Made by a program: the position numbers and the translations under genes. Below are positions 1 through 19,597 of a stretch of DNA of 19,597 bases, piece by piece. The stretch is from assembly GCA_019359715.1 (NCBI GenBank), contig JAHHGS010000012.1, forward strand, positions 1 to 19,597, written 5' to 3'. Within the stretch, counting starts at the first letter, position 1; each line of letters opens with the position of its first letter. This DNA is from Aphanocapsa sp. GSE-SYN-MK-11-07L (GTDB lineage: Bacteria > Cyanobacteriota > Cyanobacteriia > Thermosynechococcales > Thermosynechococcaceae). Below the pieces are notes generated by a model. The model worked only from the letters and a program-made list of their open reading frames with translations, was not told the origin of the DNA and ran no database searches.

Positions 1-129
1 TTGAGTAACGATTTGACAATGGTGGGAAAGGACGATATCATCAGATATTATTTTTGTATTTCTTGGGGACAGAATACTACATTCTGCCCCCATTTTTTCT
101 GCGTTAAGCTATCTTTCAACACTTCTGTG

Positions 130-157
130 GCGGCGGGTGAACGGGGTCGTTAGGTTT
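130..157. repeat. 28-bp repeat copy A (gcggcgggtgaacggggtcgttaggttt); it overlaps the stop codon of the ADH gene and is the perfect reverse complement of 1195-1222
   Basis: The reverse complement of 130-157 equals 1195-1222 exactly (28/28). Confidence 0.8.
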
Positions 158-1130
158 TGTTGTTGTGTTCCACAACGATGACTACACTTCCTTTTTTGTG
201 CCCTTGCTCGACATAACTATGAGCCTCGGCAGTTTGTTCCAACAGATAACGCTTATCTATGACCGATTTCATTTTTCCTGCTTCAATTAGCTCTTTGAGG
301 AAAATTAGATCTTCCTTACGCTCGATCGCTACCCCACCGATCACTTTCTTGTTGCTTGTCATCGAAGTCCATAGCCCTTGAAGTATCGGGGATAGATTTA
401 TATGGACAGCTCTGAGATAGATCCCGTTTTGCTTTAGTGATCTTAGACAACCTGAAAATGGACTTTTGCCTATCGTGTCAAAAACAATATCATAGGTCTT
501 ACCGCTTTTGGTAAAGTCCTCTTTGGTGTAATCAATAACCTTGTCAGATCCCAAAGATTTCACTAATTCCAAATTTGCCGTACTACATACCCCAGTAACT
601 TCTGCCCCAAAAGATTTGGCAAGCTGCACGGCAGCCGTACCTAATGCTCCAGAAGCCCCATAGATCAAGATTTTTTGTCCATTCTGAATATTTCCCTTGT
701 CTCTCAGGAAAAGTAATGAGGTTGTTGCTCCAAAAGGAATGGCGGCGGCTTCCTCATAGGTCATATTGATAGGTTTGATTGCAACTGCTGCTGCTTCGGG
801 TAGACAGATGTACTCAGCGTTAGCACCAAGACTAGTTCCTGCTCCCGCAAAGACCTGATCACCCTCTTTGAATTGTTTTACATTTTTGCCTATTGCTTCA
901 ATTTCTCCAGCTAGCTCAGACCCTAGTATTGTGTTTTTCTTAGGTCTTTTGAAACCATAGAAAAACCTTACGGGGAATGGGTCAGACTTTCGTATGCGTA
1001 CATCTGCTGATGTTACTGTGGTCGCATATATTCTTATCAGTACTTCGTTTTCCCCAGGAGTAGGTTTTTCTACCTCCTTCAGCTGCATAACATCAGGTAA
1101 GCCGTACTCTGTGCAGATAATTGCTTTCAT
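150..1130 (-). CDS. Zinc-type alcohol dehydrogenase / NADPH:quinone oxidoreductase family (medium-chain dehydrogenase/reductase superfamily)
   Basis: 326-aa ORF. The N-terminus '[34 protein letters not shown]' is typical of the GroES-like domain of quinone-oxidoreductase-type MDRs. A glycine-rich dinucleotide-binding stretch '[19 protein letters not shown]' is present. Co-directional with the upstream small membrane protein and divergent from an HxlR regulator, a common arrangement for these redox genes. Confidence 0.85.
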
Positions 1131-1194
1131 GAATGCTCCTCAAAGATAGCTTTAGTGTAGTTCACCACACAATCTTCTATCCAATGAGTTTGCG

Positions 1195-1222
1195 AAACCT
1201 AACGACCCCGTTCACCCGCCGC
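1195..1222. repeat. 28-bp repeat copy B (aaacctaacgaccccgttcacccgccgc), in the DoxX-like/ADH intergenic region
   Basis: Perfect inverted copy of 130-157, lying about 65 nt upstream of the ADH start codon on the mRNA strand. Confidence 0.8.
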
Positions 1223-1263
1223 TAGTGAACCTTCGGCATCAGCGACCATCATTATACGGTCGG

Positions 1264-1288
1264 CGTGCAACGGGATTGTTAGGCTTTG
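1264..1288. repeat. Degenerate third copy of the same repeat (cgtgcaacgggattgttaggctttg), same orientation as copy A, abutting the stop of the DoxX-like gene
   Basis: About 85% identity to 136-159 (aacgggGtCgttaggTtttg vs aacgggAtTgttaggCtttg). Together with copy B it forms an imperfect inverted repeat with a ~42-nt spacer. Confidence 0.55.
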
Positions 1289-1738
1289 CTATGCAACAGT
1301 TTCTGGGCTTTTTACCTGCTTCTTTTCAGTGTTAATCCGATCGTCTGTTTTGCGAATAGTAAGTAAAACTAACGCCATGAGTTCTGGAACCAGTGCAGCA
1401 ATTGCTGTAAGTTTTAATGACCAAGTTTCAGATGCATTAAACAATCCCGCCACACTACTCAAGTGTGCAGACATGATATCGGTAGCGTCAATAGCAACAC
1501 ACGCTAACAAAAGCGTTTGCACGGTACTTCTATTGGCAAAAGCCACAATCACGGCAAGCACAATGTCTCTAATTGCCCAAACACGAATGATGTAAGGCAT
1601 TTGGATATTTGAATCGATTGGGATGCTAAGTTGTTCCATCAACCACAGCGGGTCAGCATATCCAACAGCACTTAGGCTAAACCGAATTAGGCACATTAGC
1701 CCTATGAGTAAAGCGATATACCAACGTTGATCTCTCAT
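1289..1738 (-). CDS. Small polytopic membrane protein, DoxX-like (putative)
   Basis: 149-aa ORF with 3-4 hydrophobic helices (LLIGLMCLIRFSLSAV; IVLAVIVAFA; LLLACVAIDATDI; LTAIAALVPELMALVLL). It sits immediately upstream of, and co-directional with, the ADH/quinone-reductase gene and divergent from HxlR, the typical DoxX context. The family assignment rests on size, topology and context only. Confidence 0.5.
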   Translation of the reverse strand: MRDQRWYIALLIGLMCLIRFSLSAVGYADPLWLMEQLSIPIDSNIQMPYIIRVWAIRDIVLAVIVAFANRSTVQTLLLACVAIDATDIMSAHLSSVAGLFNASETWSLKLTAIAALVPELMALVLLTIRKTDDRINTEKKQVKSPETVA

Positions 1739-1790
1739 GTTTACTCCTGCCGATAAATTTTCTAGAAATCTATGTAGACATTAAACCCAT

Positions 1791-1826
1791 TAGTTACTAA
1801 AGTAAAGTAGTTACCATTTAGTAACT
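1791..1826. promoter_or_regulatory. Candidate operator: three copies of TAGT(T/A)AC (1791, 1808 direct; 1820 inverted), including the inverted repeat AGTTAC-N6-GTAACT at 1809-1826
   Basis: Seen in the 117-bp divergent region between the DoxX-like/ADH operon and the HxlR gene. HxlR/MarR-type regulators bind inverted repeats in such divergent promoters. Confidence 0.3.
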
Positions 1827-1855
1827 CTATAACCTCTGAGAAACTAACAGCATCT

Positions 1856-2182
1856 ATGGCAGAATCGGAATGCACTCCCCTTGAAAAACTGCTTAACCAA
1901 ATTTCGGGGCAGTGGACGATGTACATTTTGTGGATCTTAGACACTAATGGAACCATGCGCTTCGGCGAATTAAAACGCAAGATTGATAGCATCTCACCTA
2001 AAGTCTTGACACAACGATTGCGGATGCTAGAAGAAATCGGAATTGTCTATCGTAGCTACGAATCCACGATTCCACCGCAAGTTTCTTACGAATTGACTGA
2101 ACGCGGTAAGGAACTATCTAAGCCGCTTTATGATCTCTGCGATCTTGCTTCACGCTGGTATGATGGCGAGGCTAATACGTAA
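1856..2182 (+). CDS. HxlR-family winged-helix transcriptional regulator
   Basis: 108 aa. 'CTPLEKLLNQISGQWTMYILWILDTNGTMRFGELKRKIDSISPKVLTQRLRMLEEIGIVYRSYESTIPPQVSYELTERGKEL' matches the HxlR (DUF24) pattern: a Cys near the N-terminus, a 'G.W...IL..L..G..RF.EL...I..IS.K.L...L..LE..G...R......P..V.Y.LT..G' signature, and a short size. Confidence 0.8.
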   Translation: MAESECTPLEKLLNQISGQWTMYILWILDTNGTMRFGELKRKIDSISPKVLTQRLRMLEEIGIVYRSYESTIPPQVSYELTERGKELSKPLYDLCDLASRWYDGEANT

Positions 2183-2243
2183 ACACTCACCGATCAATTC
2201 CCAAAACTATCCTCACCAGCGACTTAAGAAGCCTAACTACTAC

Positions 2244-2528
2244 TTAGACGGAATATTTCCATATAATCACCCCAACAGGAGACTTAGGCGGAAACTCATC
2301 CACCTAAATCAACTATTTAAGCAATTAGGTGGACAATTTCCTATCTAACCAACCCATTGAGGTGCTTAGATGGACTCTATCCGCCTAAGCGGCCGAGTCA
2401 GGGACTGAGATGGAATTTTGTCCGCTTTTCTGCTCAATCAGGGCGATTAGGCGGAATTAATTCCTAATAATATCCCTTTTGAGGTATTTAGACTGTAAAT
2501 TGGAGCATTGAATAATCCTTGCAATACT
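2244..2528. repeat. Degenerate tandem repeat, 7 units with period 40-42 bp. Each unit begins with the head TTAGRYGGA-N5-6-TCC (unit starts 2244, 2284, 2325, 2366, 2406, 2447, 2488)
   Basis: Heads read TTAGACGGAATATTTCC, TTAGGCGGAAACTCATCC, TTAGGTGGACAATTTCC, TTAGATGGACTCTATCC, TGAGATGGAATTTTGTCC, TTAGGCGGAATTAATTCC and TTAGACTGTAAATTGGAGC. Tails also show pairwise similarity (ttgaggt in units 2 and 5; tcaggg in units 3 and 4). Confidence 0.6.
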
Positions 2529-2651
2529 TTTTTTGGAAATCGATTAGCTTTGATTGGCAATCTCTAAAATGATTGAAGTAGTTTATGGCTGTGGTTTGAA
2601 GCTCTAAGTTTCGATCTGGTCTTAGGTTGCCAGTATTCTCCGGTTTTGATT

Positions 2652-3518
2652 ATGGTTAACTCTACTCAGCCTTGGCGATTGAGAGGGCGTGATTTTAGCT
2701 GGGGCGATCGCACCTATTTGATGGGGATTCTGAATCTGACTCCCGACAGCTTCAGCGATGGCGGGCAGTTTAATGCTCTGGCGGCGGCGGTTCCGCAGGC
2801 TAAAGCGCTGGCGGCGGCAGGGATGGATATTTTAGATCTGGGTGGACAATCGACTCGCCCCCAAGCGGTGGAAGTCTCACTTGAAACCGAGCTAGAGCGC
2901 GTCATTCCGGTGATTGAAGCAGTGCGATCCCAGGGGCTAGATGTGCCGATTTCAATTGACACCACTCGCGCTGAGGTGGCCGCACGGGCGATCGCGGCCG
3001 GAGCAGATCTGGTCAACGATGTGTCTGGGGCGATGGCTGACCCTGAAATGTTGCCAATCGTTGCCCGCTTAGGAGTGCCGATTATTCTTATGCATCGGCG
3101 GGGCAACCCGCGCACAATGCAGCAACTCACCGAGTATCAGGACTTAGTCACCGAAGTCTATGATTTTTTGGCTGACCGGGCGCAGGCCGCGATCGCGGCT
3201 GGGGTAAGGGCGATCGCGATTGATCCAGGGATTGGGTTTGCTAAAACGGCGACGCAAAGCCTGCAACTGCTGCAACAGCTCAGCCGCTTTCAAAACTTGG
3301 GCTACCCGATTTTAGTTGGGCCATCCCGCAAGAGCTTTATTGGGCAAATTCTTGATCAACCCGACCCCAAACAGCGGCTGTGGGGCACGGCGGCGGCCTG
3401 TTGCGGGGCGATCGCCGGCGGAGCAGATATCCTGCGCGTTCACGATGGAGCCGAGATGCGAGATGTCTGTCGGGTGGCAGATGCCTTATGGCGTCGGGGC
3501 CCAGTCACAAAGACTTAA
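2652..3518 (+). CDS. folP: Dihydropteroate synthase
   Basis: 'GILNLTPDSFSDGG', 'DILDLGGQSTRP', 'ISIDT', 'NDVSG' and 'GPSRKSFIG' are the conserved DHPS/pterin-binding motifs. The ORF track opens at a TTG at 2646. The first ATG is at 2652. Confidence 0.9.
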   Translation: MVNSTQPWRLRGRDFSWGDRTYLMGILNLTPDSFSDGGQFNALAAAVPQAKALAAAGMDILDLGGQSTRPQAVEVSLETELERVIPVIEAVRSQGLDVPISIDTTRAEVAARAIAAGADLVNDVSGAMADPEMLPIVARLGVPIILMHRRGNPRTMQQLTEYQDLVTEVYDFLADRAQAAIAAGVRAIAIDPGIGFAKTATQSLQLLQQLSRFQNLGYPILVGPSRKSFIGQILDQPDPKQRLWGTAAACCGAIAGGADILRVHDGAEMRDVCRVADALWRRGPVTKT

Positions 3519-3574
3519 ATCGGGGTTGTAGTCTAAGCAAATTAGTTGCTAATATACATAAGCTTGCCAATCGT

Positions 3575-3646
3575 TGGGGCGTCGCCAAGTGGTAAGGCAG
3601 CTGGTTTTGGTCCAGCCATTCAGAGGTTCGAATCCTTTCGCCCCAG
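3575..3646 (+). tRNA. tRNA-Gln (anticodon UUG)
   Basis: Hand-folded cloverleaf. Acceptor TGGGGCG pairs with CGCCCCA. D-stem is GCC/GGC. Anticodon stem GCTGG/CCAGC carries the loop TT-TTG-GT. Variable loop is CATTC. T-arm is AGAGG-TTCGAAT-CCTTT. Discriminator is G, and CCA is not encoded. Length 72 nt. Confidence 0.85.
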
Positions 3647-3656
3647 TTATCTCATC
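3645..3656. repeat. Left copy of the 12-bp direct repeat AGTTATCTCATC (overlaps the last acceptor base and the discriminator of tRNA-Gln)
   Basis: Exact 12/12 match to 5831-5842. Confidence 0.6.
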
Positions 3657-3701
3657 AGCAGCAGATATGAAATTCTTCATCTTGCTGAAGAGTCATTCTT
3701 A

Positions 3702-4037
3702 ATGAACCATCCTAAAGAACAACCAATCTTCGAGCGCGGAAGCGGGAATGTTTTTGCAGATCTTGGTTTAGACGATGCGGATGAATTGTTCGCGCGCTCA
3801 CAGATTGGCTTTCAAGTTTGGAAAATTCTCAAAAGCATGAATCTTAAACAACGGGAAATCGCCCACCTCTTAGACATCAAACAACCGGAAGTGTCTCATC
3901 TGATGAATGGAGAGTTTAGCCGTTTCAGTGAAGGGAAGCTGCTGAATTTTCTAAAGCGGCTCGATCGCGAGGTCATTATTCAAATCTATGCTGTCAGCGA
4001 AGGTCAACGCCAGCCCGAAGCAACGCTGACCTTATAA
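3702..4037 (+). CDS. XRE-family helix-turn-helix DNA-binding protein (repressor/antitoxin-like)
   Basis: 'IGFQVWKILKSMNLKQREIAHLLDIKQPEVSHLMNGEFSRFSEGKLLNFLKRLDREVIIQI' is a canonical XRE/HTH_37-type HTH with a 'LG.DV.I' tail. The tracked ORF (3546) overlaps the tRNA, so the start was reset to the ATG at 3702. Confidence 0.6.
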   Translation: MNHPKEQPIFERGSGNVFADLGLDDADELFARSQIGFQVWKILKSMNLKQREIAHLLDIKQPEVSHLMNGEFSRFSEGKLLNFLKRLDREVIIQIYAVSEGQRQPEATLTL

Positions 4038-4097
4038 GTCGTAATTTGTCAGCAGAGACAAAATCGCCTTTCCAACAAAATACGAGCACATGTGGCT

Positions 4098-4145
4098 GAG
4101 ATGATCATGTAAACGAGATCATGATCTTGTTGATCGAAATCAAGC
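4098..4145. promoter_or_regulatory. Cluster of GATC-containing palindromes: ATGATCAT (4101-4108), GATCATGATC (4117-4126) and TTGAT-cgaa-ATCAA (4130-4143), with GATCATG repeated directly
   Basis: Read directly from the intergenic region between the XRE gene and the J-domain/HNH operon. It is positioned like an operator/promoter for the downstream pair. Confidence 0.3.
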
Positions 4146-4245
4146 AAAACACATTAGCTTTTTCGGAAAAAATTATATTTGCTGCTGCGAAATTTCTGAC
4201 GTTTGTGGGAACTATAAGAAAACCCAACGGTAGAAGTTAATCGCA

Positions 4246-4785
4246 ATGGATAAACTCAACACACTGATTACTGAAGAAATCGCCAGAGTAGCCGCCTTAT
4301 CCAAAATTGACCCAACCACGCTGGAAAGTTTTGCCTTATTCGTGATTGAAAATCACGGAAAGAAGGTACTGAAACCTAAACCGCTAACTTTAGCGCAAAT
4401 TAAGGCAGCAGTTTTTAAGCACTTTGGCGTCGCCGATACCAAGCAACTTAAGAAGTCTGCAACCTTCGTGATGGCAACGAATGGGATGAGCGTCAGCCTT
4501 AGTAAGAAAGAAGGCTGGGAAGCTCTTTATCGCAAGTTCTTGGGGATTTTACCAGGCGAAGATGGTGAAAAAGGACACGGCTGTATTAATGGCATCAGCA
4601 TTTTTAAGTACACTTTGCCCTGGCGTGCTTTTGGCCTAGATTCCGAGAGTGCCAGCACCGAAGACATCAAGACTGCTTACCGAGATTTAAGTAAGATTTA
4701 CCATCCTGATGTGAGACCAACAGGAGATGCCCAGGTTTTTGAGCGACTTACAGTGTTCTACAAAAGTTTGACGGAGCAATTCTGA
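4246..4785 (+). CDS. Protein with a C-terminal J-domain (DnaJ-like, HPD motif) and an uncharacterised N-terminal domain
   Basis: 179 aa. The C-terminal region 'AFGLDSESASTEDIKTAYRDLSKIYHPDVRPTGDAQVFERLTVFYKSL' matches the J-domain pattern (helix II 'A.AS..EIK.AYR.L...YHPD', then helix III 'A...F..I..AY..L'). Its stop TGA overlaps the ATG of the next gene (ATGA). Confidence 0.7.
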   Translation: MDKLNTLITEEIARVAALSKIDPTTLESFALFVIENHGKKVLKPKPLTLAQIKAAVFKHFGVADTKQLKKSATFVMATNGMSVSLSKKEGWEALYRKFLGILPGEDGEKGHGCINGISIFKYTLPWRAFGLDSESASTEDIKTAYRDLSKIYHPDVRPTGDAQVFERLTVFYKSLTEQF

Positions 4786-5825
4786 TGCCAGAAGTTTACA
4801 TTACCTCGAAAAAGCTGATTGAGACTCTAAACATTAACAGTCGAGAATTGCTCAATTTGGAAGAATTTATTGATGCTGACCCAGATGATGAATGGGAGCT
4901 GAACGAAGGGAAAGATTACAAAGTGGTCAATGATCTTGGGCTGCGTGAGTACACCGAGACCGGAGCTTTCGCGATCGCCGGATGTTTAGAGCACCAAAGG
5001 TCAGCACAGAAAGGTTGGTTTCAAAAACTGATTCAGAAGCTGATCCAAACGACTAAAGGCGATATCCGTAAAGTCTTTGTGCAACAGAAGATTCTCAATA
5101 ATTCTTCTTCGCTTGTTCAGAATAACGATCTATATTTTCTATCGACGGCAGATGTCGTTGCTATTTTTGAGACTCGTCCCGATTACCTACGAAAAATATC
5201 CGAACTGGCTAAGCGCAGCGATAAGACAATTCTGGTCAAAAATGAAGATTACCTAGATTTAATGGACAAGGGAATTTATTACTCGCTTTCAGGACTAGTA
5301 AAGCTGGCTAAAGTGTTTGCTCAAGAACTGACTCAGAAAAATCGCCGCATTTGGTGTGGGGATGTAGGAGAGAACATCAATATTTATGTGAAAGACATTC
5401 TGAAACAAATTGAGTCAAGGAATGATGCAATTGAAAATGCAATCAAGCAAGCTAAAACCAAGGCAGGTAGGAAGTGCCAGGTTACAGGGGTTAAGGGAGA
5501 TAAGATTCAGAAAGTTCCTATGGCTGGTCATCACCTTTACTCCAAGGCAGAATATCCTCACTTGGCGGCTTGTGTAGACAACATTATTTGCATTGCCAAT
5601 GATCTCCACAACGATTTTCATCAGTATATGGGTGGTTTTGATAAGCCCTGCACACTGGATGACTTTGTGACTTTTATCAAGTGTTACTATCCAGAGCAAA
5701 CAGCCGTACTCACTTGGTTACAGGCAAAGAAACTGATCTTAGGCACTCCTCAACAAGATATTACCAAGCATGTGCTTCAGTTGTCCTGGCCAATTCCGCA
5801 GCTAGCACTCCCGCCTGCCCAGTAA
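4785..5825 (+). CDS. Protein with a C-terminal HNH-like nuclease motif (zinc-finger cysteines partly lost) and an unknown N-terminal region
   Basis: 346 aa. 'RKCQVTGVKGDKIQKVPMAGHHLYSKAEYPHLAACVDNIICIANDLHNDFH' fits the HNH consensus C..(C/T)G...HH..P.....N.I.(L)C...H..FH. The N-terminal roughly 60 aa ('YITSKKLIETLNINSRELLNLEEF') may be a small HTH-like domain. Translationally coupled to the J-domain gene. Confidence 0.6.
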   Translation: MPEVYITSKKLIETLNINSRELLNLEEFIDADPDDEWELNEGKDYKVVNDLGLREYTETGAFAIAGCLEHQRSAQKGWFQKLIQKLIQTTKGDIRKVFVQQKILNNSSSLVQNNDLYFLSTADVVAIFETRPDYLRKISELAKRSDKTILVKNEDYLDLMDKGIYYSLSGLVKLAKVFAQELTQKNRRIWCGDVGENINIYVKDILKQIESRNDAIENAIKQAKTKAGRKCQVTGVKGDKIQKVPMAGHHLYSKAEYPHLAACVDNIICIANDLHNDFHQYMGGFDKPCTLDDFVTFIKCYYPEQTAVLTWLQAKKLILGTPQQDITKHVLQLSWPIPQLALPPAQ

Positions 5826-5830
5826 TTCAA

Positions 5831-5842
5831 AGTTATCTCATC
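5831..5842. repeat. Right copy of the 12-bp direct repeat AGTTATCTCATC, 6 nt after the stop of the HNH-like gene
   Basis: Exact match to 3645-3656. Confidence 0.6.
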
Positions 5843-5855
5843 CCTTGAAAACCAC

Positions 5856-6446
5856 TTACGGAGACAAATAGCTGCGCCAGACTCCGACCAGTTGGGCTTG
5901 AATTTGGGGGGTTGAAATAGCGATCGCCGCTAGTTCAGCCGCGATCGGTTGGAGGGTTTGCTGCTTGCCGCTGCGAGTATAGTAGCCCAGCAACGGGCCA
6001 GCATCAGCAATTTGAGCTGTAATCAGGGCGCCGTTGGTCAGCTTGGCGGGGGCAGGCTGCATAATTAGTGCATCACCGTTTTGAATCAGGATAGATTGGA
6101 GCGCATCGCCCTCAACTTTTAAGACAAAGCAATTGGATTGGGCAGACAGGCGATCCAATTGCAGCCATTCTGTTGGGGCGTATTCGCGTACCCAACCTTG
6201 CGCCGCGATCGCTCCTGTGTAGGGAATTCCAGTTGGGTGCAAAATTCGCAGAGTGCGGGCCTGCCCTTGCTGCCAGTTGATGTAGCCCTTGTTTTTGAGG
6301 TGTTCTAGCCGGCTCTGGACGGGGGCAGGCGACTTTAAGCCCATTGCTTGCATCATTTGCCGGATTGACGGGGCATGGCGATGTTGCCCAATGTAGTCGA
6401 CTAGCCAGTCGTAGAGTTGCTTTTGGACAGGGCTGAGAGAAGGCAT
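5856..6446 (-). CDS. lexA: LexA-like transcriptional repressor (winged-helix N-domain plus S24-fold C-domain). The catalytic Ser and Lys are apparently not conserved
   Basis: 196 aa. The N-terminus 'LSPVQKQLYDWLVDYIGQHRHAPSIRQMMQAMGLKSPAPVQSRLEHLKNKGYI' is a LexA DNA-binding domain. The C-terminus 'FVLKVEGDALQSILIQNGDALIM' aligns gap-free with E. coli '[23 protein letters not shown]', which places Ala where Ser119 sits. Confidence 0.7.
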   Translation of the reverse strand: MPSLSPVQKQLYDWLVDYIGQHRHAPSIRQMMQAMGLKSPAPVQSRLEHLKNKGYINWQQGQARTLRILHPTGIPYTGAIAAQGWVREYAPTEWLQLDRLSAQSNCFVLKVEGDALQSILIQNGDALIMQPAPAKLTNGALITAQIADAGPLLGYYTRSGKQQTLQPIAAELAAIAISTPQIQAQLVGVWRSYLSP

Positions 6447-6449
6447 AGC

Positions 6450-7385
6450 TCATCCTAGAATGCTGGCTAACAGAGCTTTCTGGACATGCAGGCGGTTTTC
6501 TGCCTGCTCCCACACCCGCGACTGGGCACCTTCAATCACGCCATCGGTAATTTCCTCGCCGCGATGGGCGGGTAAACAGTGGAGGACAATCGCCCGCGCA
6601 TCGGCCACCGCTAACAGGTCTTCGTTCACTTGGTAAGGCTGAAAAATCGGAATGCGATCGCCCGCTTCGCTCTCTTGCCCCATGCTGGCCCAAACATCGG
6701 TATACAGCACCTGTGCACCTTCAGCAGCGGCTTTCGGGTCAGTTGTAATCGTCACTTCGGTTTGCTCCTTGGCGATTGCCTGAGCCTGTTTAACAATGGC
6801 GGGTAAAGGCGCGTAGTCCGGCGGCGTTGACACCCGCACGTTCACCCCCACCAGCGCACAGCCAATCAGCAGCGAATGGGCAATGTTGTTGCCATCCCCC
6901 AGGTAGGTCAGGGTCAAGCCGGCCAACTCCCCGAACGAAGATTGAGCCGTTAATAAATCAGCCAAGACTTGGCAAGGATGCTCTAGGTCAGTTAGGGCAT
7001 TAATGACTGGGATCCGGGCGTGATCGGCGATCGTTTCCAAATCTGTCTGTTTGAAAGTGCGAATCGCCAGCACATCCAGATATCGATCTAAAACGCGGGC
7101 AGTATCCTCTAGCGGTTCGCCCCGACTGACCTGAGTTGACTCTGGATTTAGGTCAATCACCTGCCCACCCAGTTGATACATGGCAACCGAAAAGCTGACC
7201 CGGGTTCGGGTCGAAGCCTTTTGGAACAGTAGCCCCAGCACTTTTGAGATCCGAGGGCTAGCGTTGCCCAACTTCATGTCATTGGCCAGGTGCAATAGAT
7301 AAATCACCTCTTCCGCGCTCAAATCGGCCAAGCTGAGTAAATCTCGCCCTTTTAGTCTTTCCATGCTGCCTTCCAAGCGGATCAA
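6450..7385 (-). CDS. argF: Ornithine carbamoyltransferase
   Basis: 311 aa with the 'STRTR' carbamoyl-phosphate motif, 'HCLP' and 'DVWASMGQE' motifs. Confidence 0.9.
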   Translation of the reverse strand: MIRLEGSMERLKGRDLLSLADLSAEEVIYLLHLANDMKLGNASPRISKVLGLLFQKASTRTRVSFSVAMYQLGGQVIDLNPESTQVSRGEPLEDTARVLDRYLDVLAIRTFKQTDLETIADHARIPVINALTDLEHPCQVLADLLTAQSSFGELAGLTLTYLGDGNNIAHSLLIGCALVGVNVRVSTPPDYAPLPAIVKQAQAIAKEQTEVTITTDPKAAAEGAQVLYTDVWASMGQESEAGDRIPIFQPYQVNEDLLAVADARAIVLHCLPAHRGEEITDGVIEGAQSRVWEQAENRLHVQKALLASILG

Positions 7386-7395
7386 TGTTGAGCCA

Positions 7396-8379
7396 TTATA
7401 AGCGGAACAAATGACAAAGCTCGATCACTTTGATTTGAAGGCTAGAATTAGCCTCGCTGCCCTGCTTGAGGCTGACTTCCAGCTGGAGCAGCAGCGGCAA
7501 TGCCTGCTGGAGCTGTGGCAAAGAGACGCGCTGCACTTCTTTTTGTAAGAAATAAACCCGCTTCGGGTTGCTAACTTCGGCTGCTTTGGCGATCGCCTGC
7601 AGATCTTGCTCTCCGGCCATCAGCTTGATCCAGAGCCAAGTCCGAAACTGGCGAATCAAGGTGGCTACAATCCTGAGCGGGGCTTCATTTTGCTGGATCA
7701 AATCTGCCACTAGGTTCAAAGCACGGCTGGTATCGGCTTGCCGGATTGCCTCAGCCAGTTGGAGGCTATTCTGAGTTGAGGTTGTCACCAGCAGAGCCAC
7801 TTCCTGAGCGGTCAAACCTGTAGATGGCCCACCGTAAAGGCGGAGCTTTTCCAGTTCATTGTGCAGTTGGCGGGTGTCATTGCCGACGGCGTTCACTAAC
7901 AGCTCGACGGCATCGGGGGTGAGTTTAACTCCGATTTGACGCGCAGCTTGCCGAATTTCTTGACTCAATTCATCGGTTTTCCAAGCCGGAATCTGGCTAA
8001 ATTCTTTCACCTGGGCATATTTTTGCAGCAGCTTAACGGCTTTGCTGCGCCCATCTGGTTTATTAGGGCTAGTTAGCAGCAAATGCCCAGCCTCTGGCAG
8101 GTCGGGTAGGGTACGCTCTAATTCAGTCAAGACTTCTTCTGCGCACCGTTGCCCCAAGCTAGTATTGACCAGCCAAACCAGTCGCCCACCACTGCCAAAG
8201 GGTAAGGTCATGACTTGGTTCAAAGCTTGGACGATCGCGTCGGGCTGCTCTGGGCCAATTTTGTCGAAGTTAAAGCTGAGCCAAGTCGGGTCAAGAATGC
8301 GATCGCGCAGCGCCTGCACCGCTTGAGTCAAGCGATATTCATCTTCTCCCCAGTAAAAATAAGCTGGCATGGCTTGCAT
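7396..8379 (-). CDS. holA: DNA polymerase III delta subunit
   Basis: 327 aa. Begins 'YFYWGEDEYRLTQAVQALRDRI', then 'LSFNFDKI', a later 'GNDTRQLHNELEKLRLY' motif and a C-terminal helical domain typical of HolA. Confidence 0.75.
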   Translation of the reverse strand: MQAMPAYFYWGEDEYRLTQAVQALRDRILDPTWLSFNFDKIGPEQPDAIVQALNQVMTLPFGSGGRLVWLVNTSLGQRCAEEVLTELERTLPDLPEAGHLLLTSPNKPDGRSKAVKLLQKYAQVKEFSQIPAWKTDELSQEIRQAARQIGVKLTPDAVELLVNAVGNDTRQLHNELEKLRLYGGPSTGLTAQEVALLVTTSTQNSLQLAEAIRQADTSRALNLVADLIQQNEAPLRIVATLIRQFRTWLWIKLMAGEQDLQAIAKAAEVSNPKRVYFLQKEVQRVSLPQLQQALPLLLQLEVSLKQGSEANSSLQIKVIELCHLFRL

Positions 8380-8535
8380 CTTAGCTCAGGGCGGGTTGGG
8401 ATGCAGGGGGTACCCGCGATCGCAAACGCATAAAATCGTTACCTGGCAGGCAGTTATCTACGAGGTGATTCGCGCTGAGAGCATGATAGGCTGACAACGC
8501 AGAACATAGAGTGTACGGAAGTTAGGATTGAAATC

Positions 8536-9057
8536 ATGGCCATTTTGGATTCTCAAGGCCGCCTGTTTGGCAAGTTCAGCCTGCTTGATTTGGGAGCTGC
8601 CTTGGTCATTCTGTTGGTGGTGATTGGGCTGCTGTTTGTGCCGGGCAAGTCAGGCACCTCAATTGCTCAAGTCACAACCAATAAGCCGATTGAAGTTGAT
8701 GTGCTGGTCTTAGGGCTAGGCGCAAAAGACTCAAAAGAGCTAGTCAAAGCAGGAGAATCAGCCAATTTTATTATTCGCAACCAACCCTACGGACAGGTCG
8801 ATATTAAGACCGTACAATTTTTGCCCAAAACCGTTACCGTTTCTCAGCCGGATGGCTCTGTCAAAGCCCTCCCCGATCCTCGCCCAGAACTGGTTTACAG
8901 CAGCAATTTTTTGATGACGCTGGTCGGCAAGGGACAGGTGACAGCCAATGGGCCAGTGCTGGGTAACAGCAGCGTCAAAGTTGGCACCCCAGTCGAACTC
9001 GAAGGCAAAAGCTATGGCTTTAAGGCCAGCATCATTGCCGTCCGGGTGGGCGAATAA
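8536..9057 (+). CDS. DUF4330-like protein with an N-terminal TM anchor
   Basis: 'MAILDSQGRLFGKFSLLDLGAALVILLVVIGLLFVPGKSG' matches, from memory, the conserved start of the cyanobacterial DUF4330 family. Not verified by a search. Confidence 0.5.
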   Translation: MAILDSQGRLFGKFSLLDLGAALVILLVVIGLLFVPGKSGTSIAQVTTNKPIEVDVLVLGLGAKDSKELVKAGESANFIIRNQPYGQVDIKTVQFLPKTVTVSQPDGSVKALPDPRPELVYSSNFLMTLVGKGQVTANGPVLGNSSVKVGTPVELEGKSYGFKASIIAVRVGE

Positions 9058-9443: not shown

Positions 9444-9559
9444 AGAGATTCTTCTTCTGTGAGCAAGGTTAGCAAGCAACGTGAGCGAGTAAGCTCCAGC
9501 ATTATAAGCTGGAGCAAGCTGAGTCCGAAACCGCTAGGGGGATTAAGTTTCGCTGGTTA

Positions 9560-10288
9560 TTGCCGCTGGTCAGTAGTTGCAGCTTACTGCTGGTGATGCT
9601 GCTCTTTAATACTGCCCAAGTTGCGCTTCAGTTCTGGCGACCCAAACCGGAGTTGGCGGCAATTCAGCAACTCAGTCAGTTTGAACTACCGAAGATCTGG
9701 CAGGATGGCTGGCAGCTTGTCCAAACTCCTTGGCTGCTTGGTCTAGGCTTGGTTCTCGTCGTTGGGTTATTGATCTATCCGCTGCTGGCTACTCGCGCGA
9801 TCGCTGCTTTTCTTAGCCTTGCCCTTGCCCTGACTGGAATCGGGCATTGGACAACCCTGCTTAAATTTTGGGCGGCTACTCCCTTTGGTAAGACCGAACC
9901 GCTATTTGGACAAGATATTGGCTTTTACATCTTTACGCTGCCGTTCTGGCAGCTCTGGCAATTCTGGCTAGTGGCGATGGTGGTTGGCAGTTTTTTGTCG
10001 ATTAGCCTCATTTATTTGCTCTCAGCCGATAGTTTGAGTCAGGGCTATTTTCCTGGCTTTAGCCAACCGCAGCGACGGCATCTGCAAGGGTTGGGAGCGG
10101 CTTTAATGCTGGCGATCGCCCTCAGCTATTGGCTGGGTCGCTATGAGTTACTGTACGCGAATCGCGGCGTTACCTTTGGAGCTGGCTACACCGATGCCAC
10201 CATTACACTGCCACTGTTTAATGCTTTGGCGGCGATCGCCCTGCTGCTTGCAGTTCTGCTCTGCCGTCCCAAAGGGAATCGCGGATGA
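9560..10288 (+). CDS. UPF0182-family membrane protein, N-terminal multi-TM portion (TTG start; the gene appears split)
   Basis: Motifs '[14 protein letters not shown]' and '[20 protein letters not shown]' are characteristic of UPF0182. The ORF ends in a TGA that overlaps the ATG of the next ORF. Confidence 0.7.
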
Positions 10289-12138
10289 CGACCTATCCTG
10301 GCCCAGCTTGGCTTTGGCTTGGCTTGATCGGGTTCAGCTTTGCCGCCACCCTGCTCGGCCCACTGCTGCCGATTGCGATCCAAACTCTGCGGGTTCAACC
10401 CAACGAGCTAGAGCGAGAATTACCCTATCTTCAGCGCACAATTGAGTACACCCGTCAGGCCTACGGTTTAGGGGCAATCCGGGCCAGAGCTTTTAATCCG
10501 CAGCCTGACCTCAACTATGCCAGCATTCAAGCTAACGATCTAACCATTCGCAACATCCGGCTTTGGGATAGCCGCCCTTTGCTAGAAACGAATCGTCAAC
10601 TCCAGCAACTACGCCCTTACTACAGCTTTCCCAACGCTTTTATTGACCGTTACGCCCTGCAAAGCCCGGATGCCCCACCTGAAAAACGGCAGGTGTTTTT
10701 GTCAGCTCGTGAGCTTGATTTTAACACCGTGCCTCAAGCGGCTCAAACCTGGGTCAACAAACGGCTGATCTATACTCACGGTTACGGATTCACGATGAGT
10801 CCAGTCAACACAGTTGGCGAAGGGGGACTGCCCACCTACTTTGTCAAAGATATTGGCACCGGTAAATCGGGGGGAAACTTACTCACCTCCAGCCCTCAAA
10901 TTGCCGCTAGTATCCCGATTGGTGCCCCACGAATTTACTTTGGACAACTGACGGAACCCTATGTGATTGCGCCTTCGCGAGTGCCAGAACTCGATTATCC
11001 GAGCGGAAATGATAATGTTTACAACCACTATAGCGGGCAGGGTGGGGTTGGACTCCAGGCACTCTGGCGGCGGTTAGTCTTTGCCCTCTATCTGCGAGAC
11101 TGGCAACTGCTGCTTACTCCCAATTTGACCCCTGACAGCCAGATTCTGCTGCGGCGGCAAATTGAACAGCGAGTCTGGGTGATCGCTCCTTTTTTATCCC
11201 TCGACCAAGAACCCTATCTGGTGGTGGCGGACACCCACTCTTCCGCCGGAATTCAGCCTGCTGAACCCCAGGAAACCAATCATCTCTACTGGATCATCGA
11301 TGCTTACACAATGAGCAATCACTATCCCTACGCCGATCCAGAAGCAGATGCGTTCAACTACATCCGTAACTCGGTCAAGGTCGTAGTTGATGCCTACACG
11401 GGCACTGTTGATTTCTACGCTGTTGACCCCCAAGACCCGATCTTGCAAACCTGGCAACGAGTTTTTCCAGGCATGTTTCAACCTTTAGCCGCGATGCCAG
11501 CCGAGCTTTACCAGCATACCCGCTACCCAAAAGACCTGTTTCAAGTCCAAGCTCACCGTTTGCTTAAGTACCACATGACTGATCCGGTGGTCTTCTATAA
11601 CCAGGAAGACCAGTGGCAGTTGCCGACTGAAATTTACGATGGTCAACTCCAGCAGGTTGCGTCTTACTACCTGATTATGAAGCTGCTGGAAGGAGCACAG
11701 GAAGAATTTATTCTGCTCTATCCGTTTACTCCCCTCAATCGCCCCAATTTAATTGCCTGGTTGGCCGCCCGCTCTGATGGCGAAAATTATGGCAAGCTAG
11801 TGCTTTATCAATTTCCTAAGCAAGAGCTGATCTTTGGCCCAGAACAGCTTGAAGCCCGAATTAACCAAGACCCGGCGATTTCAGAAAAAATCTCGCTTTG
11901 GAACCGCGACGGTTCGCGTTTGATTCAAGGCAATTTATTGGTAATTCCCCTAGAGCGATCGCTGCTTTACGTTGAGCCGTTTTATTTAAAGGCTGAGCAA
12001 AATAGTCTACCTACCTTGATTCGGGTTGTTGTCATGTATCAAGACAAAATTGTGATGGCAGAAACGCTAAATCTGGCTTTGGAACAGACCTTTCCAGCCC
12101 CGACTCAAAGTAAAACCAAGCCGCTGATTCCTGAGTAG
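10285..12138 (+). CDS. UPF0182-family protein, C-terminal portion
   Basis: '[26 protein letters not shown]' and '[20 protein letters not shown]' are UPF0182 signatures. Confidence 0.75.
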
Positions 12139-15867: not shown

Positions 15868-16052
15868 CGGAAAGCGCTGAATAATCCTCCTTATATTCTA
15901 CTCAACTTAGGCATCAGTCAGGCATCACCTGAGCTGAAAATGACCTTGAAGTGGCGAGCTACAGATTTTTCTCATCACTTAATCATTTTTTACTTGACTA
16001 TCTATCTTTTTTTAAGTAGTCTTTATTCATGCATTAAAAAGGCACGGTCAAA

Positions 16053-16265
16053 ATGAATCAACTCAATTTGCTACTGCAGTGCTTATGGTTGCTGATTTTG
16101 GGGCTACTCATTAGCAAGATCGTTGTGATCAAACAGACTGAAATCAAACCACCGCTGAAGATTCGCAATCTTTATTGCATCCAGGCAGACGCTTTCAATC
16201 ACGGTTGTGCGATCGCAAAGGCAGAGCTGACGCTTCGCAATGACTCTGCTCAAGTTAGGAATTAG
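16053..16265 (+). CDS. Small putative TM peptide. Its 5' region and N-terminus are a diverged duplicate of the downstream flotillin-like gene
   Basis: MNQLNLLLQCLWLLILG...TEIKPPLK aligns with MTQFNFLQQCFSWAVWLLAP...TKEINPPPP of the 663-aa protein. The upstream DNA is also similar between the two (..agtctttattca..aaagg..caa/acATGa.tca.ttcaatTT.ctaC.gcagtg). Confidence 0.35.
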   Translation: MNQLNLLLQCLWLLILGLLISKIVVIKQTEIKPPLKIRNLYCIQADAFNHGCAIAKAELTLRNDSAQVRN

Positions 16266-16397
16266 TCAGACATTGTCTTCTCAAAATCTGACATCGAAGT
16301 TTTTGTTCAAGATTTATCTCAGCCTTTAATTAGGTTTTACTTAATTTTTCTATTTTACAAGCAGTCTTTATTCACCCCTTACAAAGGTATAGCCAAC

Positions 16398-18472: not shown

Positions 18473-19480
18473 ATGGATGAATGGATTGATGCATACGATG
18501 GTTTTAAGCAAAGATGGCTGGATGAAATTATCGGCCCGGTTGACCAAACAGCAGTCACCGCCACCCTCTCAGCCCTCTATCAGAAGGCAGGCTATGCTGC
18601 CCCCGAAGTTGTCTTTTTAGATAGTCCCTGGGCAACAGCGATCGCTCCCTGTGCTGTGTTCCAGCAACCGGCCGCCGACCTGGAAACCCAGGTTCGCACC
18701 GCCCTGCTGAATCTGCGGCAGGAGCTGAACAATCAGCTTTTTGGACAACTCTGGCCGCAGTGTGATAACTGCAAGGCTTGCCAGTTCATGCTGCATTTTT
18801 TGTCTTTTGCCTTTATGACAACAGTCGAAAGATATCCAGGCTGGAGAGGGGAAGCAGGCTGGTTAACGGTATTGTCACAATACGAGGAATGGCAGAGCCG
18901 TGCCGATTCCAATTGTTATGCTTTTGCGACTGACGTTCCTGTTGGGCTAGTGGCCTTGGAAGATTTTAGCTATCCCTGGGTCAGTTTTTATCGCTATTAC
19001 GCAGACTGGAATTGGCTAGAGACCCATCCTAGGATTGAACAAATTTACAAGCAGCTTGGCGATCGCCTGTTTGAGCAGTTCTGTTTTCAGATTCATCCCT
19101 ATCATCAGCAAGATATAGAGGTCGTCAAGCCAATCTGGTATGAACCGACGGTCAATGCTGTGTTCTACGAATACGCCGCAGAGTTTGGCATTGAGATTGA
19201 CCCTGAACTGCTTGAGCTTTTCCACTGCTCGCCGCTCTACGATGTTGTATTCAATCCGTTTCCAGACCTTTGTTTTGTCAGCGATCGCCCCCAAATCAAG
19301 CGCGATCACCTAGAAAGACTGCATGCTGAAGCTGAACCAGCGATTCAGTTTGCAGATGGATCAGGTGAATATTTCCATCATGGTAAGCGTTTACCTCCGA
19401 CCTACGGAGCAATACCTCGCAGTCAGTGGCGGGCTGAATGGGTCGTGCAGGAGCCGAATTCTCATCTCAGAGGTGCTTAA
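18473..19480 (+). CDS. Hypothetical protein, 335 aa, with Cys cluster C-x2-C-x2-C; likely co-transcribed with the flotillin-like gene
   Basis: An ATG at 18473 is preceded by AGGAG with a 6-nt spacer (the tracked ORF begins at an upstream TTG). 'WPQCDNCKACQF' is a possible metal-binding motif. No family recognised. Confidence 0.55.
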   Translation: MDEWIDAYDGFKQRWLDEIIGPVDQTAVTATLSALYQKAGYAAPEVVFLDSPWATAIAPCAVFQQPAADLETQVRTALLNLRQELNNQLFGQLWPQCDNCKACQFMLHFLSFAFMTTVERYPGWRGEAGWLTVLSQYEEWQSRADSNCYAFATDVPVGLVALEDFSYPWVSFYRYYADWNWLETHPRIEQIYKQLGDRLFEQFCFQIHPYHQQDIEVVKPIWYEPTVNAVFYEYAAEFGIEIDPELLELFHCSPLYDVVFNPFPDLCFVSDRPQIKRDHLERLHAEAEPAIQFADGSGEYFHHGKRLPPTYGAIPRSQWRAEWVVQEPNSHLRGA

Positions 19481-19597
19481 AGACACTAACCTCGGCAGCC
19501 CAAAGACACTAACTTCGGCGGCCTAAAGACACTAACTTCGGCACCCAAATGACAGCAACCTCGGCGGGTCATTTTTGAGAAACTTCGGCAGGTAATA
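19479..19597. repeat. Tandem repeat with units of 22-24 bp, AAAGACACTAACYTCGGCRSCCY, at least 4-5 units, truncated by the window end
   Basis: The units are aaagacactaacctcggcagccc, aaagacactaacttcggcggcct, aaagacactaacttcggcaccc, aaatgacagcaacctcggcgggtc and atttttgagaaacttcggcaggtaata. The array starts at the stop codon of the preceding gene. Confidence 0.7.

What the first reader, a model, noticed from the sequence alone, without database searches (positions are those of the whole stretch)
3575..5842. A ~2.2-kb AT-rich islet inserted at the 3' end of tRNA-Gln, bounded by an exact 12-bp direct repeat, with no integrase
The 12-mer AGTTATCTCATC occurs at 3645-3656, where it begins with the last acceptor base and discriminator of the tRNA. 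It occurs again at 5831-5842, 6 nt after the last gene of the cluster. A repeat that starts inside the tRNA 3' end and recurs at the far boundary is the classic attL/attR signature of site-specific integration into a tRNA gene. The enclosed DNA (XRE-HTH gene, J-domain gene, HNH-like gene) is visibly AT-richer than folP, argF or holA. It carries only one GCGATCGC (HIP1) octamer, against five in the 0.87-kb folP gene. No integrase or recombinase lies inside, so the islet is either a decayed element or a satellite mobilised in trans. A chance 12/12 match within the ~100 bp flanking the boundary has a probability of roughly 1e-5.
Basis: partly seen in the sequence, partly recalled or inferred. Interest (0 to 1): 0.8.

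Follow-up and report, generated by a model that had tools for sequence, protein, structure and literature searches.

The report
Decayed tRNA-Gln islet carrying J-domain/HNH pair
A 2.2-kb stretch of foreign-looking DNA beside a cyanobacterial tRNA-Gln gene is most likely the immobile remnant of a small integrating element that lost its integrase; the remnant is ordinary, but its cargo is an undescribed gene pair (a J-domain co-chaperone plus an HNH nuclease) that is the only recognisable cargo of an intact mini-island in another cyanobacterium.

Summary
The exact 12-mer AGTTATCTCATC sits at 3645-3656, starting on the last two bases of tRNA-Gln, and again at 5831-5842, and nowhere else in the window. 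The DNA between has GC 0.43 against 0.53-0.58 in the flanks, one HIP1 site and no recombinase. The chance estimate was too optimistic: about 5e-4, not 1e-5.

The islet holds two modules. One is a HigA-type HTH_37 antitoxin whose Gp49 toxin was deleted here but is intact in a relative. The other is a translationally coupled J-domain/HNH-nuclease operon.

The J/HNH pair occurs at many unrelated loci in cyanobacteria, and a J gene lies directly upstream in every locus where enough sequence exists. It is always AT-rich and HIP1-poor. It matches no plasmid, phage or defence-system library. In one metagenomic contig it is the only recognisable cargo of a textbook 3.9-kb island: tRNA-Pro, tyrosine integrase, pair, displaced tRNA fragment.

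No empty site was found. All four relatives carry the islet or its wreck, and the repeat has drifted to 10/12 in one of them.

Verdict: an old, decayed integrative remnant (about 0.55). An active satellite is unlikely. A chance repeat in a variable hotspot stays a real rival (about 0.3).

The parts
3575..3646 (+). tRNA-Gln(UUG), intact, no encoded CCA; the left anchor of the islet
   Evidence: ARAGORN; Rfam RF00005, 59.1 bits; 99% identical in the relative L004
3645..3656 (+). Left copy of the 12-bp direct repeat AGTTATCTCATC (attL-like); overlaps A72 and G73 of the tRNA
   Evidence: L004 has AGTTAACTCATC at the same place
3697..3701 (+). Deletion scar (TCTTA). About 391 nt that in L004 hold the promoter and the Gp49/HigB-like toxin gene (120 aa) are missing here
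   Evidence: L004 gene table, sequence, alignment; Pfam Gp49 E 1.2e-22 for the L004 toxin
3702..4037 (+). Orphan HigA-type antitoxin (HTH_37, XRE family), 111 aa
   Evidence: Pfam PF13744 E 5e-24; 98% aa identity to L004, dN/dS 0.05; relatives of the toxin-antitoxin pair at 65-69% nt identity on Nostoc and Pseudanabaena plasmids
4111..4130 (.). Palindrome (core AGATCATGATCT) upstream of the J gene. Conserved in L004 and kept as a relic in L011, but not conserved in other lineages; a possible operator
4202..4245 (+). 44-nt leader of the J/HNH operon. Homology to a 75%-identical cassette at an unrelated locus (L079) starts here
4246..4785 (+). J-domain protein, 179 aa: an N-terminal helical domain with no PDB match plus a C-terminal J domain with an invariant HPD motif
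4785..5825 (+). HNH nuclease, 346 aa: two tandem alpha/beta N-terminal domains, a long helix, and a C-terminal beta-beta-alpha-Me domain. Its ATG overlaps the J stop codon (TGATG), which implies translational coupling
5831..5842 (+). Right copy of the 12-bp direct repeat (attR-like), in the 30-nt spacer between the HNH stop and the convergent lexA stop
   Evidence: exact in L012; AGTTATCTTATC in L004; homology of L011 to the window breaks at 5848, 5 nt beyond it
5856..6446 (-). lexA, the first core gene on the right flank (followed by argF and holA); not part of the islet
   Evidence: Pfam; the synteny lexA-argF-holA is shared by L004 and L011

Best explanation
The 2.2 kb between tRNA-Gln and lexA is an old, now immobile remnant of a small integrative element. 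That element entered at the 3' flank of tRNA-Gln before the known members of this Aphanocapsa-like lineage diverged.

The two 12-bp copies are most likely the attL/attR core left by a tyrosine-integrase crossover at, or just beyond, the tRNA 3' end. The integrase and any excision functions have since been deleted.

Two conflict-type modules remain:
1. A Gp49(HigB-like)/HTH_37(HigA-like) toxin-antitoxin pair. In this genome only the antitoxin survives.
2. A translationally coupled operon for a J-domain protein and an HNH nuclease.

Inferred function of the operon: the J protein recruits host DnaK/Hsp70 through its HPD motif to control the nuclease, and the nuclease is aimed at DNA by its two N-terminal domains.

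Since integration the islet has been inherited vertically. It has been reshaped by deletion (the toxin here; most of the islet in L011), by further insertions at its lexA end (L011), and by recombinational replacement of the first 270 or so codons of the HNH gene.

Shown: the anatomy, the composition, the age of the repeat, the decay, the distribution of the cargo, and an intact analogue elsewhere. Inferred: that the repeat is an att scar, that an integrase was once present, and the biochemical role of J/HNH.
For: 1. **Position.** The repeat marks both composition and gene-content boundaries and starts on the tRNA's last two bases. The positional chance is P = 4.6e-4.
2. **Age.** Both copies are present in relatives and, by parsimony, were identical in the common ancestor. 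L004 has one private change in each copy, and L012 is exact at the far end.
3. **Foreign composition.** GC is 0.427 against 0.53-0.58, GC3 is 0.43-0.47 against 0.54-0.60, and HIP1 is 0.46/kb against 1.8-5.7/kb.
4. **Accessory cargo.**
   - Relatives of the toxin-antitoxin module are on cyanobacterial plasmids.
   - The J/HNH pair sits in different neighbourhoods in different lineages.
   - It is 4-18 GC points below its flanks in 21 of 22 loci and 5.5-fold poorer in HIP1 when pooled over 27 loci.
5. **Intact analogue.** L045 holds tRNA-Pro (10830-10903, minus strand), a 391-aa tyrosine integrase (9498-10673), the HNH and J genes (7389-8963), and a displaced tRNA-Pro 3' fragment at about 6913-6960 in direct orientation (33/36, E 8e-9). 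GC inside is 0.34-0.43 against 0.52-0.57 outside. The pair is thus the only recognisable cargo of a 3.9-kb tRNA-integrated island.
6. **Dispensable and decaying.** The toxin is deleted in the window. L011 keeps only a 164-182-nt HNH relic and 20 nt of the palindrome.
7. **Breakpoint.** Homology of L011 to the window breaks 5 nt from the right copy, where other conflict genes (a phage-type HNH and ParDE) are inserted.
Against: - There is no integrase or fragment of one. Only 55 nt (window) or about 90 nt (L004) separate the tRNA from the first gene.
- The repeat is short and holds only 2 nt of the tRNA, so the usual hallmark, a displaced tRNA fragment, is absent.
- No empty site was found in any relative.
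- 12-mers repeat 35 times in this window by chance, and flanking 12-mers turn up by chance in about 3 of 24 comparable loci when the search zones are wide.
- In about 40 other loci the pair has no flanking repeat, and in most no tRNA.
- The L045 pair is only 33-50% identical to this one and points the other way relative to its tRNA. It is an analogue, not an orthologue.
Confidence: 0.55

Rival explanations
1. The 12-mer is a chance repeat. The tRNA-Gln/lexA interval is a recombination-prone variable spot where accessory modules (the toxin-antitoxin pair, J/HNH, and in L011 another HNH plus ParDE) accumulated piecemeal. The routes would be illegitimate recombination, or homologous exchange through conserved flanks. 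No single site-specific integration took place.
For: - 35 exact repeat pairs of at least 12 nt exist in the window, and the BLAST E for this hit is 0.083 without positional constraints.
- Chance flanking 12-mers were seen in other loci.
- The islet is composite. The toxin-antitoxin module and the J/HNH pair occur separately elsewhere.
- L011 shows independent insertion at the same border.
- There is clear evidence of homologous mosaic exchange: dS is 0.8-2.4 in HNH codons 1-270 and 2.7 in lexA codons 91-135, against 0.16-0.30 in the neighbours.
- The upstream side of folP is also variable.
Against: - The positional coincidence: the repeat starts on the tRNA's last two bases and recurs in the 30-nt spacer at the far boundary. 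P is about 5e-4.
- The pair is shown to ride a tRNA-integrating element elsewhere.
Confidence: 0.28
2. Integrase-free Campbell-type insertion. A circular DNA carrying the cargo recombined with the chromosome through a 12-bp microhomology that happened to lie at the tRNA trailer, duplicating the microhomology at both ends.
For: - It explains the direct repeat and the absence of any integrase trace.
- Only 2 nt of the tRNA are included, so no tRNA-restoring design is evident.
Against: - It gives no reason for the junction to coincide with a tRNA end.
- Twelve bp is very short for recombination in vivo (general knowledge).
- L045 shows that an integrase route exists for this cargo.
Confidence: 0.07
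3. The islet is an active integrase-less satellite. It is excised and moved in trans by an integrase encoded elsewhere (a helper phage or island) that recognises the 12-bp core.
For: - Exact 12/12 identity in this genome.
- The islet is small, and one gene could act as a regulator (HTH).
Against: - The two copies have drifted apart to 10/12 in L004, so identity is not maintained.
- The islet decays by deletion.
- The same HTH_37 + J + HNH combination is never seen at another site or in another lineage.
- Nothing similar exists in IMG/VR, phage or plasmid collections.
- It has no replication or packaging genes.
Confidence: 0.04
4. Nothing was inserted. The three genes are ancestral residents of this lineage, and their odd composition is intrinsic to the genes.
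For: - The islet is present in every known relative.
- The HTH_37 and J genes have the same dS as the flanking core genes.
- The J/HNH pair is AT-rich in every genome, so low GC may be a property of the genes themselves.
Against: - The next lineages have argF-lexA followed by unrelated genes.
- The pair's patchy distribution: about 84 representatives among 1.84 billion.
- HIP1 depletion.
- Location in an integrase-bearing island in L045.
- The mobile character of toxin-antitoxin modules.
Confidence: 0.05

Closest known systems
tRNA-gene-integrated genomic islands as defined for the Islander database (PMC4383910), and their degraded remnants as described for Prochlorococcus tycheposon islands (bioRxiv 10.1101/2020.12.28.424599)
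   Same: - An intact tRNA at one end.
- A direct repeat at the other end.
- Foreign composition.
- Accessory or defence-type cargo.
- Decay with loss of the mobility genes.
   Different: - There is no integrase.
- The repeat is 12 bp and includes only 2 nt of the tRNA, not a displaced tRNA fragment.
- At 2.2 kb it is far smaller than typical islands.
- No empty site is documented.
The 3.9-kb tRNA-Pro mini-island found here (L045, contig ERZ1066117 NODE-95)
   Same: - It carries the same J-domain/HNH operon as cargo.
- It abuts a tRNA 3' end.
- It is AT-rich against its flanks.
   Different: - It has a 391-aa tyrosine integrase and a displaced tRNA fragment of 36-48 nt.
- It has no toxin-antitoxin module.
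- The operon points toward the tRNA, not away from it.
- Its proteins are only 33% (HNH) and about 50% (J) identical to those of the window.
HigB/HigA-type type II toxin-antitoxin modules (Gp49/DUF891 toxin with HTH_37 antitoxin)
   Same: - The antitoxin matches HTH_37 over its full length.
- In L004 the toxin gene overlaps the antitoxin start, as in canonical operons.
   Different: In the window the toxin and its promoter are deleted, leaving an orphan antitoxin.
Modification-dependent HNH restriction enzymes EcoKMcrA and TagI (PDB 6ghc, 6ghs)
   Same: - The overall plan is shared: an N-terminal DNA-reading part plus a C-terminal beta-beta-alpha-Me HNH domain.
   Different: - There is no sequence similarity outside the HNH core.
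- The two tandem N-terminal domains have no PDB match.
- The nuclease is always coupled to a J-domain protein, which those enzymes lack.
Virus- and element-encoded J-domain proteins (polyomavirus T antigens; phage RB43 Rki, recalled from memory)
   Same: A minimal J domain with HPD, encoded by a mobile or accessory element, presumably to co-opt host Hsp70.
   Different: - The N-terminal domain is different.
- The partnership with a nuclease is obligate.
- No family member was found in viral collections.

Membership tests
tDNA-integrated genomic island (Islander criteria, PMC4383910) | Intact tRNA or tmRNA gene at one end | tested here: met
   tRNA-Gln 3575-3646
tDNA-integrated genomic island (Islander criteria, PMC4383910) | Displaced fragment of the same tDNA, in direct orientation, at the other end | tested here: not met
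   The only shared stretch is 12 nt, of which 2 nt belong to the tRNA. By contrast, L045 has a 36-48-nt fragment.
tDNA-integrated genomic island (Islander criteria, PMC4383910) | Tyrosine integrase gene inside the island | tested here: not met
   Pfam, PHROG and NCBIfam scans of all three genes found none, and there is no room for a remnant.
tDNA-integrated genomic island (Islander criteria, PMC4383910) | Empty site in related genomes | tested here: inconclusive
   Only three relatives exist in the collections. All are occupied or carry remnants. More distant lineages lack the synteny.
tDNA-integrated genomic island (Islander criteria, PMC4383910) | Anomalous composition and accessory cargo | tested here: met
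   GC, GC3 and HIP1; the nature of the cargo
Phage satellite / PICI-like / tycheposon | Integrase plus replication and/or packaging-hijack genes; recurrent near-identical copies | tested here: not met
   None of these genes is present. There are no copies in IMG/VR or phage records.
Type II toxin-antitoxin, HigBA-like (Gp49 + HTH_37) | Adjacent toxin and antitoxin genes | tested here: not met
   The antitoxin is present. The toxin is absent in the window and present in L004.
HNH (beta-beta-alpha-Me) nuclease superfamily | Catalytic His, Asn and His plus Cys/His metal ligands on a beta-beta-alpha fold | tested here: met
   Invariant H249, H250, N266, H275, H279, C231, C289 in 45 sequences; structural matches to HNH domains. 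Enzyme activity was not tested.
J-domain (Hsp40) proteins | HPD motif between helices II and III of a J fold | tested here: met
Known anti-phage defence systems (PADLOC-DB v2.0.0) | Match to a model of a described or candidate system | tested here: not met
   No hit for J or HNH346; only weak PDC-M64 hits for the HTH protein

The most novel reading that the evidence does not exclude
The J-domain/HNH operon is an undescribed, cyanobacteria-restricted conflict module. It would be a nuclease gated by the host Hsp70 system through a dedicated J protein, with DNA-targeting N-terminal domains that are swapped between strains by recombination. It could serve as a defence or addiction function, or as the maintenance function of minimal tRNA-integrating elements. 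L045 would be an intact element of this kind and the window a fossil of one.
Probability: 0.3. Interest if true: 0.65.

Novelty: new member of a known kind. Interest (0 to 1): 0.42.

Why it matters
As an island remnant the islet is routine. It does show how quickly small integrative elements lose their mobility genes while their conflict cargo persists.

The more useful product is the cargo. It is a strictly coupled J-domain/HNH-nuclease pair of about 84 representative clusters. It matches no model in the defence-system library searched, and no plasmid or phage record. It is always compositionally foreign, and in one case it is the only recognisable cargo of a 3.9-kb integrase-bearing island.

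If the J protein really couples DnaK to a nuclease, that would be a new way of controlling a toxic effector. It would also give a handle on mobile DNA in non-marine cyanobacteria, where such elements are poorly charted.

Tried and rejected
**Searches for an empty site**
- The LexA homologue search showed that only three close relatives exist.
- More distant LexA lineages have no tRNA-Gln/lexA junction.

**Searches for the element elsewhere**
- The attP-like junction and the tRNA-plus-core pattern were searched in IMG/VR. One chance hit (L058) turned up and nothing else.
- HNH346 and the J protein gave no match in PLSDB plasmids or INPHARED phages. IMG/VR gave only generic J-domain matches.

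**Other structural readings**
- A transposon-type origin was considered and rejected: there are no terminal inverted repeats inside the 12-mers (reading).
- The resemblance of CCTGCCCAGTAAT (5813-5826) to the tRNA end was considered as a second tRNA relic. It is ordinary coding sequence that is conserved in L079, where there is no tRNA.
- Flanking repeats around the pair in 24 other loci were HIP1-related or chance matches only.
- No palindrome or leader upstream of the J gene is conserved across the family.
- The sharp homology limits of the cassette (4202-5822) against L079 and L082 were considered as mobile-element ends. At 75% identity the intergenic DNA would be unalignable anyway, so this was rejected as evidence.

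**Evolution and context**
- Positive selection on HNH346 was considered. dS is saturated, so allele replacement explains the divergence better.
- The neighbours of the pair are mostly housekeeping genes, with only scattered defence genes. A 'defence island' context is therefore not established.
- Rfam and promoter/terminator scans of 3400-6000 added nothing beyond the tRNA.
- Literature searches found no description of a J-domain/HNH system.
Full report
**Source and layout**

The window is a 19,597-bp contig of the MAG Aphanocapsa sp. GSE-SYN-MK-11-07L. This follows from the names attached to P0001 and P0241. The gene order around the finding is:

- folP, 2646-3518 (+)
- tRNA-Gln(UUG), 3575-3646 (+)
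- an HTH_37 gene, 3702-4037 (+)
- a J-domain gene, 4246-4785 (+)
- a 346-aa gene, 4785-5825 (+)
- the convergent core genes lexA (5856-6446), argF and holA

**Check of the observation**

- The 12-mer AGTTATCTCATC occurs at 3645-3656 and 5831-5842 and nowhere else in the window, even with one mismatch allowed.
- The left copy begins on A72 and G73 of the tRNA.
- The right copy lies in the 30-nt spacer between the stop codon of the 346-aa gene and the stop codon of lexA.
- The enclosed DNA has GC 0.427, against 0.576 for folP and 0.534 for lexA-holA. GC3 is 0.43-0.47 against 0.54-0.60. It has one HIP1 octamer against five in folP.
- None of the three genes matches a recombinase.

The statistical claim needs correcting. 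The window contains 35 exact direct-repeat pairs of at least 12 nt. A BLAST of the tRNA plus 24 nt against the window gives E = 0.083 for this hit. Only the position makes the repeat notable. With boundary zones of 61 and 91 nt, a Monte Carlo test gives P = 4.6e-4.

**Relatives and the search for an empty site**

The lineage is poorly sampled. A LexA search found three close relatives (96, 87 and 85% identity), and the next hits drop to 53%.

- **L004** (JGI metagenome; flanks about 93% identical, dS 0.16-0.30) has the same locus with one extra gene. A 120-aa Gp49/HigB-like toxin lies directly upstream of, and overlaps, the HTH_37 gene. The window has lost about 391 nt holding this toxin and its promoter, leaving TCTTA at 3697-3701. 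The 'XRE gene' is therefore an orphan HigA-type antitoxin.
- **Repeat in L004.** The two copies read AGTTAACTCATC and AGTTATCTTATC.
- **L012** has the exact 12-mer next to lexA.
- **Inference.** By parsimony the two copies were identical in the common ancestor and have drifted since. The repeat is old and is not being maintained.
- **L011** (GCA_965190275.1) keeps holA-argF-lexA, but its homology to the window stops at 5848, 5 nt beyond the right copy. There follows 1.9 kb with a phage-type HNH, two unknown ORFs and ParDE. After that come a relic of the 346-aa gene (window 5601/5619-5782) and 20 nt of the palindrome that precedes the J gene, and then unrelated genes. That genome holds a wreck of the islet.
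- **More distant lineages.** They have argF-lexA followed by unrelated genes, or no synteny at all.

No empty site could be found.

**The cargo**

The 346-aa protein is an HNH nuclease.

- C231, H249, H250, N266, H275, H279 and C289 are invariant in 45 homologues.
- A confident AlphaFold model (pLDDT 92.6) shows two tandem alpha/beta domains at about residues 5-75 and 110-181. These are weakly similar to each other (hhalign E about 1e-3). A long helix and a C-terminal HNH domain follow.
- The HNH domain matches EcoKMcrA, TagI, GVE2 HNH, Cas9 HNH and the retron-IA HNH.
- The N-terminal domains match nothing in the PDB.

The upstream protein has an unmatched helical N-terminal domain and a C-terminal J domain with invariant HPD. 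The two genes overlap by one base (TGATG).

The pair is strictly linked.

- In 38 of 43 metagenome loci, and in every genome locus examined, a J gene lies immediately upstream of the HNH gene. The five exceptions are contig edges or partial matches.
- The HTH_37 and Gp49 genes accompany the pair only in the window's lineage.

The family is small and, as far as the hits are named, cyanobacterial. It has 84 representatives at E <= 1e-30 among 1.84 billion cluster representatives. It matches nothing in PADLOC, PLSDB, INPHARED or IMG/VR.

Its context and composition look foreign.

- Its neighbours differ between lineages.
- It is 4-18 GC points below its flanks in 21 of 22 loci.
- Pooled over 27 loci it has 0.19 HIP1 sites per kb, against 1.05 in the flanks.
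- The neighbours are mostly housekeeping genes, with scattered conflict genes: Uma2, PIN, a type IIG restriction-modification enzyme, Shedu, and two integrases.

**An intact analogue**

One of the two integrase-bearing loci is decisive for the kind of element involved. In L045, a 97.8-kb metagenomic contig, the order is:

1. displaced tRNA-Pro 3' fragment, about 6913-6960
2. J gene, 7389-7973
3. HNH gene, 7974-8963
4. tyrosine integrase, 9498-10673 on the minus strand (Arm-DNA-bind_2 + Phage_integrase)
5. tRNA-Pro, 10830-10903 on the minus strand

The fragment is a direct repeat of the tRNA from the anticodon stem to 2 nt past its 3' end (33/36 by BLAST, E 8e-9). GC is 0.34-0.43 inside and 0.52-0.57 outside.

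This is a textbook tRNA-integrated island in the sense used by Islander (PMC4383910). It is only 3.9 kb long, and its only recognisable cargo is the J/HNH pair. Integrase-mediated entry at a tRNA gene is therefore an observed route for this cargo.

**Recombination since integration**

Between the window and L004, dS is 0.16-0.30 for folP, HTH_37, J, argF and holA. It is 0.8-2.4 (saturated) for HNH codons 1-270 and returns to 0.24-0.28 for codons 271-346. lexA codons 91-135 show the same pattern.

The divergent part is thus a replaced allele, not a fast-evolving orthologue. The replaced part covers the presumed DNA-targeting domains. Other cassettes at 74-77% identity sit in other contexts (L079, L082), with homology limited to 4202-5822.

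**Interpretation**

The best reading is that the islet is the fossil of a small integrative element that entered at the 3' flank of tRNA-Gln before this lineage diversified. It lost its integrase, and now evolves by deletion, further insertion and allele exchange. I put this at about 0.55.

The main rival, at about 0.28, is that the 12-mer is a coincidence in a variable hotspot filled piecemeal. It cannot be dismissed for three reasons:

- the repeat holds only 2 nt of the tRNA;
- no integrase trace or empty site exists;
- 12-mers recur by chance at this scale.

An active satellite is unlikely because the two copies drift apart, the islet decays, and no second copy exists anywhere.

The mechanism of J/HNH, a nuclease controlled by Hsp70 through a dedicated J protein, is inferred from domain content only.

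**Comparison with known systems, and novelty**

- The islet meets the composition, cargo and tRNA-anchor criteria of a tDNA island. It fails the integrase and displaced-fragment criteria, so it should be called a degenerate remnant, not a member.
- The toxin-antitoxin part is a HigBA-type module that lacks its toxin.
- The J/HNH pair belongs to the HNH and J-domain superfamilies. As a system it has no described counterpart in the libraries and literature searched.

The finding itself is a new member of a known kind. The cargo is what deserves follow-up.

Noticed in passing
window 1-2650: A second accessory segment lies upstream of folP. GC is 0.42 and there are no HIP1 sites. Its genes are a zinc-type alcohol dehydrogenase (150-1130, minus), a DUF4267-like protein (1289-1738, minus) and an HxlR regulator (1856-2182, plus). 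The relative L004 has RuvX-DUF1292-YceG-HAD-DMT_6 here instead, and homology between the two starts only at 2667, inside the folP 5' end.
   Followed up: partly
window 3656-3668 and 4175-4187: A 13-nt inverted repeat (CAGCAGCAGATAT / ATATTTGCTGCTG, 12 of 13 complementary) brackets the toxin-antitoxin remnant. The left arm abuts the left 12-mer. The right arm lies 15 nt before the point where cassette homology with L079 begins. It could mark the toxin-antitoxin module as a separate insertion, or it could be chance.
   Followed up: no
window 4785-5595 and 6040-6175 (lexA codons 91-135): These are mosaic patches. Synonymous divergence from L004 is saturated (dS 0.8-2.7), while the neighbouring genes have dS 0.16-0.30. 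This indicates import of divergent alleles by homologous recombination in both the HNH gene and lexA.
   Followed up: partly
L045 6913-10903: An intact 3.9-kb mini-island. In order it holds a displaced tRNA-Pro fragment, the J/HNH pair, a tyrosine integrase and tRNA-Pro. A Uma2 gene lies on one flank and a pentapeptide-repeat gene on the other.
   Followed up: yes
L056 3591-8210 (Nostoc parmelioides, 12-kb contig): The J/HNH pair lies beside a ResT/TelK-type protelomerase, two HTH_17 genes and a DUF4145 gene. This may be a linear plasmid or prophage-like element.
   Followed up: no
L011 6174-8051: In the relative GCA_965190275.1 the position of the right 12-mer is occupied by a phage-type HNH (114 aa), two unknown ORFs (124 and 137 aa) and a ParD/ParE pair. 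This is a second, independent load of conflict genes at the lexA border.
   Followed up: partly
window 15963-16084 and 16310-16429: A direct repeat of about 123 bp (75% identical) lies in a low-GC patch (0.38-0.40). It flanks a 70-aa ORF (16053-16265, plus) and sits next to a 774-aa NACHT/nSTAND3 NTPase gene (13543-15867, minus).
   Followed up: no
window 19479-19565: A tandem repeat of a 23-nt unit (AAAGACACTAACCTCGGCAGCCC), 3.8 copies, lies at the end of the contig.
   Followed up: no
L018 6714-7432 and L046 5205-7420: In two further loci the pair lies close to tRNA genes: 550 nt downstream of tRNA-Tyr/tRNA-Thr in L018, and next to tRNA-Cys and a 192-aa integrase fragment in L046. No displaced tRNA fragment was detected in either.
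   Followed up: partly
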